DNA of 40,168 nt from Collodictyon triciliatum (lineage: Eukaryota), in the NCBI GenBank assembly GCA_043381765.1, contig JBHJMP010000165.1, positions 1-40,168 on the forward strand, given 5' to 3'. Below the pieces are notes generated by a model that saw nothing but the letters and a program-made list of their open reading frames with translations, searched no databases and was not told the origin of the DNA. Positions 3,233 to 12,900 of the stretch are shown piece after piece. The position numbers and the translations under genes were made by a program. The number at the start of each line of letters is the position of its first letter. Position 1 is the stretch's first letter.

Positions 3233-6200
3233 ATGAATCCTGTCGGACAGCCTTCCACAAACACGGTGCAGGATCTCTTCCAGAGAGCTGACAAGGCAGG
3301 AACCGGCCTTATCAATTTCCAAGAGTTCAAGGATGTGAGCCTCCGTTATGTTTTAAAAACAAAATGATATCTGAAGACTTGTTTGGTGCTGTCTGTCTAT
3401 CTATTTATATATTTATATATTTATATATCTATTTATTTATCTATTTATCTATTTATTTATTTATTTATCTATTTATTTATCTATTTATCTATTTATCTAT
3501 TTATCTATTTATCTATTTATCTATTATCTATTTATCTATTTATCTATTTATCTATTTATCTATTTATCTATCAAAATCTACGTTTTCTTAGTTCTGGTTT
3601 GGTTTGGTTTGGTTTGTGAAATTGCGTTTGATTTTCACAAGGAAAATTTAGAAAAATGATTTTGCACATAGGTCTTCTTATCGGCAAGAGATGGCTTTGA
3701 TCCAGGTACTGCATCGCATCTCTTTGAAACACTTGACTCAGGTTAGAAACTTATCAAAATCAAAATGTTTCTGAGATCTTAGTATGCCCTCTTCCATCCT
3801 TTTCTATCCTTTTTTATTTTTATTTTTATTATTATTTTTATTATTATTATTATTATTATTATTATTATTATTATTATTATTATTATTATTATTATTATTA
3901 TTATTATTATTTTTATTATTATTATTTTTATTATTATTTAATTGACCTCCTTTTGTATTCAGATAAAGATGGGTTTTTAAGACTGACTGACATATTAAGT
4001 GCCATGGAACGGGCAGATTTCGGTCAGCCAGAATGTAAAGAGTCCCATATTTTCGTTCGGAATAATCATATATCCTTATATTTTATTTTAAGTTCTAAAA
4101 GCTTAACACGCCCAAATTATAGCGCGTCACAAATCCCAAAATGGCACCCCAGAACATGTAATTTTCCTGTTCCTACAACACAGATTTCATGTTGCACTAT
4201 TTCCTTCTTCTTTTTTTTTTCTCCGTTATATATGAATTTGAGAAACTTTGCGTTCACCTCGCAGATAATTATCTTGTCATCAAGTTTGTGACTAAAATTG
4301 CTGTTTCAGGCTATACCTCAAGAAATTTCATCATCAGTTAAAACCCCACTCAATGGCGAGAGTTATGGAGAGGTTGCGATATGTTACCTATGACTGTTAT
4401 GATATGATTTAACAAAATGATAAAGAAAATATTCATATTGCTTGAATTTGCTTTGAATCGAATAAAAGAAACACAATACTATGAATTTTTGACTTGTTAT
4501 CTATTTAAATTTTAGGTAGAAAAACTAAGACAAGAGTTATCCGAATGCAGAAAAAGCGAGGAGTCATACCGCTATGTATTTTATTCATGAACTGACACAT
4601 TGATGCCTTGGTTTTTAGATGCTATTATTGTCTATATTCCTCTTATATATGGAATTTGATTATTTTTAGAAGGCAGAGAATCTCTCTCTGACATTGAGTG
4701 ATGCTGCTGCCCAAAAGCTCCACTTACAAGTGCAGTTGGACGAGTCGAACAAAAAGTATTATGATTGTTGTCTAGAGCTAGCCAAACTAACCGCACTATA
4801 TGAGTCCACGCAAGCAGAGGTATTTTCAGTACATGGCATTGGTTCGTTCATCGATGTTTATTTATGCCGAGTGTATAGTTTTCGATGTATCAAAGAAGGA
4901 AAAAACTACATCCATATAGCTCTTGGATACTCAAAGAAAACTGGAATCTGTTCTCTACGATATTGATCATTCTAAAAAAGAAAGGTTACGGGCATCATCT
5001 CAAAGTACAATCGATCATGGTTTGAAATTTGATTCATCAGAGGGTATTGTAAATCATTTCTACTGTGCCTTATTTTACATTTTCTTCTTTTCCTTTCTTT
5101 ATCTGATTTATTTTACAACTTTAGAGAAAGACATCCGTCTGAAGGAGGAAAACCAATCCTTAAAACAAATGAATTCCATAATGGAAATCAAGATTAAGAC
5201 TCTTCAGAGACAGTTGGATGATGTAAACCCCTTTGATATACTTTTTTATGAAGAATATATGATTGACCAATCACGATATCAAATATAATTTTATCAATTT
5301 TATTACTACAAATAAGCCTTTATCATTTTTCAAAATGTCTAGTCTTTCACTGTCATCGATAATTTGCGAAATGAATCTCGGGAGACGGGGCATTCAATAG
5401 CCATCTTTAAAGAAGAACTGGATGGATTAAGCCAACAGGTCTAATGGGATTTTGCAACATGAATGACACTGATCAAGCTCACAGTATTTAATTACTTATT
5501 TTTTATTTAAAGACATTTGAATTCAACTAAAAATACAATATAGAATCAAACCCTAGAAAAATCGCTGAGACTTTATCAAGCCCAAGTGTCTGACCTTACT
5601 TCCATTCTTGAGCAATATCCACATTAAATTTACGTTATATGTTTCTTGATTTGTGTGAACCGACCACCACGTATTTAATTGTTTCCTTTTGTTTTTTTTT
5701 TTTTAAAAAAAATTCTTTCTAAAGCATAGCACCTGAATTATTTTTAAAATATGTATATAATTGTGAAACTTTGTTTATCTTTGACATAATATTTACAAGT
5801 CAAACAAGTCAGTCCAACTGGGATGAAGTGAGTTTAAAATAATTGCAAGTGGCGTATAATATATCACAGTGAATGATTGTATATCTCATACGGATAGAAG
5901 GACTCTGTTTTAGTTCCATACAAGTTGGAAATTGATGATTTGAGAAGAAAGCTCGTTCAGGTCCAACGCGATAATGCATCTCTCCGTCTCCAATCAGAGT
6001 CCCTACGTGGGCAAAATGTATGTGTTCGCGTTTGTTTCATATTCATGAATTAACTTGGGAAGTTGTTGGTAGTATGTCTTTCCTCAAACGAGGGAAAAAA
6101 TCGCTAAATATTGGATCATATAGGATCAGCTGATTGAAGCACAGAAGAAGCATGAATCTCTGCTCGCTATCTCTGAACTCATCCAAGAGCTTCTGGTCAC

Positions 6201-9972: not shown

Positions 9973-12900
9973 TTATGGCGGTCCGGCTTCGTTTTCGTCT
10001 AGCTCGTGTCTGTCCTTCTCCTTCTCTTTGTCCTTGTCTTTCTGACGGTCTTTCTCCCGAGCAAACATTTGCATGACAGAGCCCCGTTGAAGAGATGATG
10101 TGGCTCGAAGAATGCGAGTGAGCCATTCGCTCGCGGGAGCAGACGGTATTTCGCTTTCTTGTTGGAGCTTCATTTCAAAGTCCTTTGTGATGGAATGCAG
10201 TTGGTTCTTTTTGGTTGGTTCGAGAAGCTCAGAGTCCTGATGGATAAAAAGTATCAATGTGTATGAAGACTTCTAAAAGATTCCTTGAGTGTGTGGTGAT
10301 TGCCTCTGAGTAAATGGTGCACATGGATGACTTTTTAATCGTAATAGAAATTACCTGGTTGAGCATTCGCAGAGTAGGGAGGATTATATCAATGATGACT
10401 TCTTTTTTGATGTCATCTGCTGTGGTCAAGGACAATAGGCGCATTTTCAACTGTGTATAATTTTAAATGTGTATACTCATTTACTGTACATGTGAGCTTT
10501 GCAATTGCGATTCGATACTAAAAAATATGAATGTACATCTGCACTCATGTTTGGATACGGCAACCAGAGCAATTGAAGAATCCATCCACAAGCTCAGCAG
10601 CAATTTCTTTGCGCTGTGGTATGGATGCATTCGCGCATATCAAATCCGCAATCATCATCATTTTGGGAAATAGTACTGCTCGACAAAGGAGTTCACAAGG
10701 TCCCAAAAAAAGAGAGAAGGAAAAAAGAAAAAAGAAAAAATGAAAAAAAGAAAAAAGAAAAAATGTGGGATAGTAGGTGAGAGTGAGGGAGAGAAAATAA
10801 TACGGTCAGCTTTAATCAAACGTAAACTTATGCAGATATATGTATGTCGCCGCATCGTTACATCGACCCAAGCAATTACGTGAATCTCGGAAAGCCAAAG
10901 AGGACGGAATAAGATTTATCAAAGCTCGGAGAACTTGAACAATCATGTCATAATCAACTTCGTGAATAATTGTATCAATCTTGAAAACAATTTGCTCCAA
11001 AACCTGTAATGGATTCTGATGTTGAGAATATACATGCACTATAATCTTTTTATTTTAAATAGTTAAAATTCAGAAATAATAGAAAATTCGTTAGGTTCAT
11101 AGGAAAATGTAACAAAGTCTAGAATACGTTTTTCTCCATCGTATTTCCCAGGATTAATCCCAGGCCGGCCACTCCATTTGACCGGACTGCAAGGTTTGGG
11201 TCTTCACTCTTAATTGTGTCGTGTAATTTGGACAGATTAACGCACGATAAATAGTATACAAGCTTAGAATAGTTATGTTATGTATCTCAAATATTATTTG
11301 ACCATGAAATGCAAATGCTATTTTTTTTAATTTGATTGTTTGCTGGCTTTTACGAGAGGTTAAAAAATAAATTAAAAAAGTAANNNNNNNNNNNNNNNNN
11401 NNNNNNNNNNNNNNNNNNNNNNNNNNNNNNNNNNNNNNNNNNNNNNNNNNNNNNNNNNNNNNNNNNNNNNNNNNNNNNNNNNNNNNNNNNNNNNNNNNNN
11501 NNNNNNNNNNNNNNNNNNNNNNNNNNNNNNNNNNNNNNNNNNNNNNNNNNNNNNNNNNNNNNNNNNNNNNNNNNNNNNNNNNNNNNNNNNNNNNNNNNNN
11601 NNNNNNNNNNNNNNNNNNNNNNNNNNNNNNNNNNNNNNNNNNNNNNNNNNNNNNNNNNNNNNNNNNNNNNNNNNNNNNNNNNNNNNNNNNNNNNNNNNNN
11701 NNNNNNNNNNNNNNNNNNNNNNNNNNNNNNNNNNNNNNNNNNNNNNNNNNNNNNNNNNNNNNNNNNATTGGCTAATTTTCAAGAAAATACCTCAAAAAGG
11801 ATAAACTATATGTCAGTATGCTTATATCAGGCTTCTTCCAGTCGTCTCTCTCCAGAGCAATATGAATCGATAAATCTCTTATAAAATTATGTAACTTGTG
11901 TACAATTTTGTATGGATTAGAACCCTTATATATTGCAGTAACAAAAAAAAAAGTGATGGTGATGGTGATGGTGATGGTGATGGTGATGGTGATGGTGATG
12001 GTGATGGTGATGGTGATGGTGATGGTGATGGTGATAGTAATAAAAAAAAATGATAAAGGAAAAATAGTAAAAGTAATAAAAAAAAATGAAAATGAAAAAT
12101 AGCAATTAATTATTCAAAATCATGGACTACAAATAAATAAGCATGAAAGGTAAGGATGAAAATACTTCTCCATGTTCGACACAAGGTAGAACCCCAGTAA
12201 CCAAAAGTTTCGTGACTTGTTGCCGTGCATCAAACACATTTACCTTAACATCTTCCACTGTAAAATAAAAAAAAATTTTGTTCATCGTGTATCACATTTA
12301 GTCCTCTCAAAAAGGAAATAAATCACTTGCAGAGTTTATATAATTGATATAAAAATATATTGACATTACCAACTATTTGCAGTGATGATTCTCCTAATCC
12401 TTTCATTTTTTCGCTGATATTATCTTTAGGCCTATCTGCTATACTATTTTCTATCTTTTCGCCCAATCGCTTAATTTCTGACAAAAAATAAGGCTGTACT
12501 ATAATTTTTGTGAATATCTCTCCGAAAGAGTTGCAGAAGGAATTGAGTAATTTGGAAAAAGATGGCATTGTGGGAGACGTCACAGGGGTCATCTCGATGA
12601 TTCTATATAGAAATATATCTTAAACATCAAACATACATGCAAAACTCTTGTAAATGATAAATCGTCCTATCATCGATAAAATAAATGATAATTCACAAAC
12701 ACATTCTTTCATATGAAAAACTATTATGAATTCCACAGCAATCGTGTAAAATATGAGATATTCCGTAAATGTGATCAATTTGAGACTATAGTAATGATAC
12801 AGTAATGATAAAGATAAAGTAATAATAAAACAAAAAAATCTTCCTTTCAATTTGCGCGGGATGAAAATGACAAAGAGATGATAGATGGATAGATGGATAG

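What the first reader, a model, noticed from the sequence alone, without database searches (positions are those of the whole stretch)
5615..10558. Possible lineage-specific rewiring of minor-spliceosome (U12) signals: RTATCCA donors and TCYTTGAC branch points
Seen: the two best-supported minor-type introns lie in unrelated genes (5615-5796 +, 10558-10417 -). Both keep RTATCC but have A at +7 (ATATCCAC, GTATCCAA), and both use a G-containing branch point (TCTTTGAC, TCCTTGAC) 9-12 nt from the 3' end. Established: the canonical U12 donor is RTATCCTT and the branch point is TCCTTRAC; donor positions around +7/+8 pair with U11 and U6atac; minor introns are usually well under 1% of introns. Inference: two clear and three weaker candidates (2741, 7026, 32929) among roughly 65-70 introns here suggest an expanded minor-intron complement with relaxed donors, possibly with compensatory snRNA changes.
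Basis: partly seen in the sequence, partly recalled or inferred. Interest (0 to 1): 0.75.

Follow-up and report, generated by a model that had tools for sequence, protein, structure and literature searches.

The report
Two genuine minor-type (U12) introns
Two neighbouring genes of an intron-rich protist each carry one real minor-spliceosome (U12-type) intron with a slightly off-consensus donor, but two introns cannot show that the whole lineage has rewired its minor splicing signals.

Summary
Both introns are real and U12-type. Intron 1 (5615-5796, +, AT-AC, 182 nt) is removed exactly in a spliced contig of a public run. Intron 2 (10558-10417, -, GT-AG, 142 nt) is the best homology-guided join. 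Its split codon gives the His found in a Diphylleia rotans transcript protein, and the product is collinear with 10 of 11 RELCH-family rows aligned.

Both have RTATCC, non-T at +7 and +8, a TCYTTGAC branch site 12 and 9 nt from the 3' end, no pyrimidine tract and no AG before the donor. The G in the branch site is canonical (TCCTTRAC). A at +7 occurs in a published U12-type intron of rice.

The other 22 of 24 mapped introns in the two genes are GT-AG (21) or GC-AG (1) with non-U12 donors. Of the weaker candidates, 7026 is a real intron but U2-like. 2741 and 32929 are unsupported.

No genome is held, so minor snRNAs, minor-specific proteins and genome-wide logos could not be examined. The rewiring idea is neither shown nor excluded. 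Gene 2 suggests a relative of Diphylleia (CRuMs), a supergroup absent from the main text of two large minor-intron surveys I searched.

The parts
5615..5796 (+). U12-type AT-AC intron of gene 1, 182 nt, phase 2
   Evidence: Joint 5614>5797 with AT..AC ends in one 1422-nt contig of run X1. The record positions in table 8 add up with no spare letters. The exon chain has 0 stops in one frame.
5615..5622 (+). Donor ATATCCAC, with A at +7 and C at +8; the exon ends in CA, not AG
5778..5785 (+). Branch site TCTTTGAC; the A at 5784 is 12 nt from the 3' end; ATAATATTTAC follows, with no pyrimidine tract
5544..5614 (+). Exon upstream of intron 1
   Evidence: Joints.
5797..5827 (+). 31-nt exon downstream of intron 1
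   Evidence: Joints 5614>5797 and 5827>5898.
10417..10558 (-). U12-type GT-AG intron of gene 2 (RELCH homolog), 142 nt, phase 1
   Evidence: Best homology-guided join, score 197 against 178 for the next. The split codon C|AT gives the His present in the Diphylleia protein.
10551..10558 (-). Donor GTATCCAA, with A at +7 and A at +8; the exon ends in CC, not AG
10425..10432 (-). Branch site TCCTTGAC; the A at 10426 is 9 nt from the 3' end; CACAGCAG follows, with no pyrimidine tract
10559..10675 (-). Exon upstream of intron 2
   Evidence: tblastn HSP against P0001 and the join with the preceding exon.
10355..10416 (-). Exon downstream of intron 2
7026..7122 (+). Real GT-AG intron with donor GTATCT after AG, ending TTTTTGACAG; U2-like, not minor-type
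   Evidence: Joint 7023>7121 (cut +2); sequence.
4005..9578 (+). Gene 1: coiled-coil protein with a Ser/Pro/Gln-rich tail. 13 mapped introns (11 joints, 2 from loose ends), of which 1 is U12-type. The start at 4005 is a guess.
   Evidence: No homolog found.
9973..17101 (-). Gene 2: RELCH-family HEAT-repeat protein with an N-terminal region shared with its Diphylleia homolog. 11 joins resolved, of which 1 is U12-type. The 5' end is not defined.
4070..4309 (+). Unresolved. ATATCCTTAT sits at a phase-0 exon end and would make an AT-AG intron to the acceptor at 4309. The rival donor is the GT at 4055.
   Evidence: Sequence only. No reads were laid here.

Best explanation
Both are ordinary, functional U12-type (minor-class) introns, one AT-AC and one GT-AG.

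Inferred mechanism, from established knowledge of the minor spliceosome: a U11/U12 di-snRNP recognises the RTATCC donor and the TCYTTGAC branch site together, and U6atac then replaces U11 at the donor. The strong, correctly spaced branch sites and the intact +1 to +6 core carry recognition. The non-T letters at +7 and +8 are tolerated degeneracy that costs one or two base pairs.

Shown here: the exact junctions, the motifs and their spacing, the reading frames, and the contrast with 22 neighbouring introns.

Inferred only: which spliceosome acts, and which adenosine is the branch point.

Nothing in hand requires a lineage-wide change of signals or of snRNAs.
For: Intron 1:
- One contig of run X1 joins 5614 to 5797, skipping 182 nt with AT..AC ends. 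It is one of 12 joints on 4400-8500; the other 11 are GT..AG.
- The run's contigs are 95-99+% identical to the window, with 30 differing positions listed, so this is not the window's own assembly.
- The exon chain is open in one frame.

Intron 2:
- The spliced join at 10558/10417 scores best against P0001.
- It gives ..CSGCHDIKKEV.. against ..SAGCHDIKKDV.. in the Diphylleia protein.
- The product aligns collinearly with 10 of 11 RELCH-family rows; the eleventh, a Diphylleia paralog, does not reach this region.

Motifs:
- RTATCC at +1 to +6.
- Branch sites TCTTTGAC and TCCTTGAC, 12 and 9 nt from the 3' end.
- No pyrimidine tract.
- Exon ends CA and CC, not AG. Olthof et al. 2024 link the lack of AG to dependence on the minor spliceosome (passages).
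- Phases 2 and 1.

Chance: expected coincidences of both motifs with mapped junctions are 3.6e-4 for 24 introns.

Precedent: the intronIC paper prints a rice U12-type intron starting GTATCCATCA, and human SMYD2 and UFD1 with CCTTGAC branch sites (passages).
Against: - Both of two donors lack T at +7 and at +8. From recall, not from a call, T at +7 is kept in most human U12-type introns, so two of two is unexpected under a human-like profile and leaves room for relaxed constraint in this lineage.
- At 2 of 24 mapped introns, the local density is far above the roughly 0.5% stated for characterised species.
- Run X1 is not on record as RNA; that it is cDNA is inferred from its 12 intron-like joints. 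The adaptor-like loose end TATCAACGCAGAGTACATGGG looks like a template-switch oligo end, but that is recall only.
- Intron 2 has no read evidence, only homology.
- No minor snRNA or minor-specific protein of this organism was seen.
Confidence: 0.7

Rival explanations
1. In this lineage the minor-class donor consensus has shifted or relaxed at +7/+8, the minor-intron complement is enlarged, and U11 and U6atac may carry compensating changes. This would parallel Physarum, where the branch motif and U12 snRNA changed together.
For: - Both of two verified U12-type donors have A at +7 and a non-T at +8.
- 2 of 24 mapped introns are U12-type.
- Co-evolution of a minor splicing signal with its snRNA, together with massive intron gain, is documented in Physarum (whole text of the preprint read).
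- One of the two introns lies in a gene with no detectable homolog. In Physarum, genes without homologs outside close relatives are rich in such introns.
Against: - The sample is two introns.
- Both branch sites are canonical or one letter off, so no change on the U12 side is indicated.
- All RTATCC sites of the window were listed. Beyond the two, none has junction support.
- The only other sites lying at a plausible intron start on a gene's sense strand (4070, 2741) read RTATCCTT, the canonical form.
- RTATCCA sites elsewhere fall in coding, antisense or intergenic sequence.
- A at +7 occurs in an accepted rice U12-type intron.
- No snRNA could be examined.
Confidence: 0.15
2. The introns are removed by the major (U2-dependent) spliceosome, and the U12-like motifs are incidental. 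This would be a 'minor-like' intron, or a U2-type AT-AC intron.
For: - The U2-type donors of this organism are very degenerate: GTATTT, GTTTTT, GTCTAA and others. A weak donor such as GTATCC might therefore be accepted.
- Motif pairs alone arise by chance about once per window.
Against: - AT-AC ends combined with ATATCC.
- No AG before either donor and no pyrimidine tract.
- Branch motifs at 12 and 9 nt from the 3' end.
- The joint chance of both motifs at mapped junctions is 3.6e-4 for 24 introns.
- Olthof et al. 2024 report that minor-like introns lacking G at -1 respond to minor spliceosome inhibition (passages).
Confidence: 0.06
3. One or both junctions are artefacts: a reverse-transcriptase jump, a contig mis-join or a processed DNA copy for intron 1, or a wrong gene model for intron 2.
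For: - Only one contig carries the 5614>5797 joint, and the shorter side is 31 nt.
- Intron 2 rests on homology with one close protein.
Against: - Only 1 letter is shared at the two ends of the joint ('both' = 1), so there is no repeat to promote a jump.
- The same contig carries eight other clean GT..AG joints, and its length is fully accounted for.
- The frame stays open.
- The homology join is exact to the codon.
Confidence: 0.03

Closest known systems
Canonical U12-type (minor-class) introns of animals, plants and other eukaryotes
   Same: RTATCC donor core, TCCTTRAC-type branch site 9-12 nt from the 3' end, AT-AC and GT-AG subtypes, no pyrimidine tract, no AG before the donor, non-zero phase.
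   Different: Both donors lack the T at +7 and at +8 of RTATCCTT. One branch site has T for C at its third letter. The local density of 2 in 24 mapped introns is high, but it comes from one window.
Transformed minor system of Physarum polycephalum (Larue, Elias and Roy; bioRxiv 10.1101/2020.10.12.336362, whole text read)
   Same: A TTGA-containing branch element whose A lies 9-12 nt from the 3' end. Minor introns in short-intron, repeat-rich genes. One such intron lies in a gene without detectable homologs.
   Different: Physarum donors are [G/A]TATC[C/T]TTT, with T at +7 and variation at +6. Here +6 is C and +7 is A. In Physarum 20,899 of about 175,000 introns are U12-type, classic CCTTRAC branch sites are rare, and U12 snRNA has changed. 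Here one branch site is fully classic, and no snRNA could be seen.
'Minor-like' introns of Olthof et al. 2024 (PMC11347168, passages read)
   Same: Donor scores below a perfect consensus.
   Different: Minor-like introns typically have AG at -2/-1 and often a pyrimidine tract. These two have neither, and they have strong minor-type branch sites.

Membership tests
U12-type (minor-class) spliceosomal intron | Donor core RTATCC at +1 to +6 | tested here: met
   ATATCC at 5615 and GTATCC at 10558 on the minus strand.
U12-type (minor-class) spliceosomal intron | T at +7 and +8 of the extended donor RTATCCTT | tested here: not met
   The letters are AC and AA. This part of the consensus is not absolute: a rice U12-type intron is printed as GTATCCATCA.
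U12-type (minor-class) spliceosomal intron | Branch site TCCTTRAC close to the 3' end | tested here: met
   TCTTTGAC at 12 nt, with one mismatch, and TCCTTGAC at 9 nt, exact.
U12-type (minor-class) spliceosomal intron | Terminal pairs AT-AC or GT-AG at junctions that are really used | tested here: met
   Intron 1 by a spliced contig. Intron 2 by a homology-guided join, with no read evidence.
U12-type (minor-class) spliceosomal intron | No pyrimidine tract between branch site and 3' end; no AG at -2/-1 of the donor exon | tested here: met
   The tails are ATAATATTTAC and CACAGCAG. The exon ends are CA and CC.
U12-type (minor-class) spliceosomal intron | Splicing depends on U11, U12, U4atac and U6atac | not testable with these tools
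   No genome is held. Rfam found only a tRNA in the window.
Physarum-like expanded and transformed minor system | U12-type introns make up a large share (about 12%) of all introns genome-wide | tested here: inconclusive
   2 of 24 mapped introns in two genes are U12-type. Three more introns read in a third gene are U2-like. One window cannot give a genome-wide rate.
Physarum-like expanded and transformed minor system | Classic CCTTRAC branch sites are rare and replaced by TTTGA; U12 snRNA has changed to match | tested here: not met
   One of the two branch sites is the classic TCCTTGAC. The U12 snRNA was not available.
RELCH family (host gene 2) | Full-length similarity to proteins that their sources name RAB11-binding protein RELCH homolog | tested here: met
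   Exons are 37-71% identical to P0001. P0001 finds 336 proteins at E<=0.001. Of the 10 looked up, 3 are named RELCH homolog: tick, thrips and lamprey.

The most novel reading that the evidence does not exclude
The window comes from a relative of Diphylleia (CRuMs). That supergroup is not named in the main text of two large minor-intron surveys. The organism may carry a several-fold enriched minor-intron complement (2% of introns or more) whose donors are unconstrained at +7/+8. That would imply altered or more tolerant U11 and U6atac donor recognition, and would be a second, independent case of minor-system transformation after Physarum.
Probability: 0.15. Interest if true: 0.7.

Novelty: new member of a known kind. 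Interest (0 to 1): 0.35.

Why it matters
As it stands, this is a clean pair of U12-type introns, one of them verified by a spliced contig, in an organism that looks like a relative of Diphylleia. Olthof et al. 2024 state that they covered six of the seven eukaryotic supergroups, and their list leaves out CRuMs. Neither that paper's main text nor that of Larue and Roy 2023 names CRuMs, Diphylleia or Collodictyon. A full-text search listed no paper among its 15 best that holds both a CRuMs term and a U12 or minor-spliceosome term.

If the placement holds, these introns show that minor splicing persists in that supergroup. [quoted passage not shown]

The larger claim of rewired signals would matter as a second example of splice signal and snRNA changing together. 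It needs a genome.

Tried and rejected
- No whole genome is held for the window. So there was no search for U11, U12, U4atac or U6atac, none for minor-specific proteins, and no genome-wide intron census.
- The look-up of sequencing runs gave no RNA holder listed: 3 runs of one study, all marked 'RNA?' as a guess.
As the tool suggested, I asked for the part beside it, 4400-8500. That used the only call, so intron 2, 2741, 4070 and 32929 have no read evidence.
- Run X3 laid nothing, and X2 laid one contig.
- The largest exon of gene 1 found no homolog among 898 candidates.
- Two scans of metagenome contigs for genomic relatives of gene 2 found none: 235 and 274 pattern matches, 0 confirmed. Two earlier tries failed on query form.
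- The ESM Atlas search with the kinase gave no usable taxonomy.
- The hnRNP F/H-like gene has only 24-46% identical hits from many phyla, so it does not place the organism.
- Earlier findings of this scan: none.
- A permissive scan (RTATCY donor, TTRA 8-14 nt before AG or AC, open frames on both sides) gave hundreds of noise hits and was dropped.
- Candidates rejected on sequence context alone:
  - 26537: GTATCC lies inside an open frame that runs on. Its TCCTTAAC is 636 nt away.
  - 27316: it lies 7 nt after a GT at which the frame can be joined to an acceptor near 27668.
  - 21995 and 39875: AT-rich non-coding or antisense sequence.
  - 13744: a stop codon lies between the exon and this site.
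  - 31535: it lies after the stop codon of the hnRNP-like gene.
- Whether human RELCH has a U12-type intron at this position: no held paper shown in the 12-row listing links RELCH or KIAA1468 with minor introns.
- I found no printed frequency for the letters at +7. PMC60238 is not held.
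Full report
**What the window is.** It is 40 kb of an intron-rich eukaryote with short, AT-rich introns and many microsatellites. It has three N runs and one tRNA-Gly gene, and no other Rfam match. No whole genome is held.

**The observation.**
- Intron 1 starts at 5615 with ATATCCAC and has TCTTTGAC at 5778-5785. Its branch A is 12 nt from the last base (5796), and it ends in AC.
- Intron 2, on the minus strand, starts at 10558 with GTATCCAA and has TCCTTGAC at 10432-10425. 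Its branch A is 9 nt from the last base (10417), and it ends in AG.
- Both have A at +7. Both also lack T at +8.

**Are the junctions used?**

Intron 1. Three coded public runs hold part of the stretch.
- Run X1 gave 12 joints. Eleven have GT..AG ends. One, 5614>5797, skips 182 nt with AT..AC ends.
- It stands in one 1422-nt contig. The contig's pieces and the three short exons between them (96, 71 and 31 nt) account for every letter of the record.
- The spliced chain is open in one frame with no stop.
- The contigs differ from the window at 30 listed positions, so they come from a close relative or another strain, not from this assembly.
- The run is not on record as RNA. That it is cDNA is my inference from the joints.

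Intron 2.
- The one longer homolog found with a gene-2 exon is a 963-residue protein. It comes from the EukProt transcriptome of Diphylleia rotans.
- tblastn places 16 exon pieces of it along 17101-10042 on the minus strand, at 29-71% identity for the 16 pieces (37-71% for 14 of them).
- I scored every GT-AG, GC-AG and AT-AC join between neighbouring pieces. The best join there is 10558/10417, scoring 197 against 178 for the next.
- The split codon C|AT gives His, so the product reads ..CSGCHDIKKEV.. against ..SAGCHDIKKDV.. in Diphylleia.
- The product is collinear across the junction with 10 of 11 family rows aligned. The eleventh, a Diphylleia paralog, does not reach this region.

**Chance.**
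- The motif pair alone is not remarkable. The window holds 2 pairs, against a mean of 1.17 in 400 Markov simulations, and 2 or more arose in 32%.
- The coincidence of both motifs with independently mapped junctions is remarkable: 3.6e-4 are expected for 24 introns.

**Census.**
- I mapped 24 introns. Thirteen are in gene 1: 11 from joints and 2 from loose ends located. Eleven are in gene 2: 11 joins taken from the 15 neighbouring HSP pairs, the other 4 being unresolved for missing exons or N gaps.
- Twenty-two have non-U12 donors (GTATTT, GTTTTT, GTCTAA, GTAATT and others; one is GC-AG) and lengths of 70-403 nt.
- Three further introns of an hnRNP F/H-like gene start GTAAGC, GTAAGA and GTATAT.

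**The weaker candidates.**
- 7026: a real intron, 7026-7122. It follows AG, reads GTATCT, and ends TTTTTGACAG, so the only TTGAC is 3 nt from the end. It is U2-like.
- 2741: GTATCCTT follows directly on tttttttcag and lies about 290 nt upstream of the first ATG of the long frame. A CCTTTAAA element 8 nt before an AG at 2616 keeps a 5'-UTR minor intron possible. This is unresolved.
- 32929: it would be a 56-nt AT..AG intron, shorter than any mapped one, with a pyrimidine tract and no branch motif.
- 4070, a new ambiguous site: ATATCCTTAT at a phase-0 exon end could pair with the acceptor at 4309. A GT at 4055 fits the frame as well.

**How unusual are the signals?**
- The branch-site G lies within TCCTTRAC. 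Human SMYD2 and UFD1 U12-type introns are printed with CCTTGAC, and a rice U12-type intron with GTATCCATCA (intronIC paper, passages).
- The lack of AG before the donor and of a pyrimidine tract fits introns that depend on the minor spliceosome (Olthof et al. 2024, passages).
- In Physarum the donor varies at +6 and keeps T at +7. The branch motif became TTTGA, 9-12 nt from the end, and U12 snRNA changed with it (preprint, whole text).
- Here one branch site is fully classic.
- Two of two donors without T at +7/+8 is still odd under a human-like profile. That T is strongly kept at +7 is my recollection; I found no printed frequency.

**Who is it?**
- P0001 finds 336 family members in a library of 1.84 billion representatives. 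Apart from a fragment of itself, the best 150 are mostly 21-30% identical, and at most 38% over short stretches.
- The window's exons are 37-71% identical to P0001.
- Three of the 10 hits looked up are named RELCH homolog.
- So gene 2 is a RELCH homolog, and the organism is probably a relative of Diphylleia (CRuMs). This rests on one gene. The hnRNP F/H-like gene has no close hit.
- Olthof et al. surveyed six of seven supergroups, and their list leaves out CRuMs. Larue and Roy 2023 do not name CRuMs taxa in their main text.

**Verdict.** These are two genuine, conventional-looking U12-type introns with mildly degenerate donors. The claim of lineage-wide rewiring is untested, not shown.

Noticed in passing
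4373-16957 (24 mapped introns): The U2-type donors are very degenerate. After GT almost any AT-rich letters follow, and G at +5 is seen in only 2 of 22. The introns are 70-403 nt long with 18-38% G+C.
   Followed up: partly
8337-8739 (+): A GC-AG intron of gene 1 holds a 10-nt unit repeated 25.6 times (8436-8691). A loose end of a contig of run X1 joins 8336 to 8740 across it.
   Followed up: yes
9659-9814: A T-rich run of 156 nt (84% T) lies between the convergent stop codons of gene 1 (9578) and gene 2 (9973).
   Followed up: no
7485-7606 / 7485-7689 (+): Two alternative 3' splice sites share one donor. Both are present in contigs of run X1.
   Followed up: no
4937-5222 (+): The X1 contig runs unspliced through a Phe/Tyr/Leu-rich stretch (about 5045-5125) that looks like an intron starting GTATTG. 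It may be a retained intron.
   Followed up: no
4070 (+): A perfect ATATCCTT sits at a frame-compatible exon end and would give an AT-AG intron to 4309. AT-AG is the commonest non-canonical minor-intron boundary in Physarum. No reads were laid here.
   Followed up: partly
1273-1345 (+): A tRNA-Gly (GCC) gene sits next to the 3' end of a minus-strand gene.
   Followed up: no
36734-38874 (-): A leucine-rich-repeat exon and a protein kinase exon lie on the same strand. This is probably one LRR-kinase gene.
   Followed up: no
28401-31299 (+): An hnRNP F/H / GRSF1-like gene with four RRM-type repeats has a long His/Ser/Gln-rich exon between the third and fourth. The best database hits are only 24-46% identical.
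   Followed up: partly
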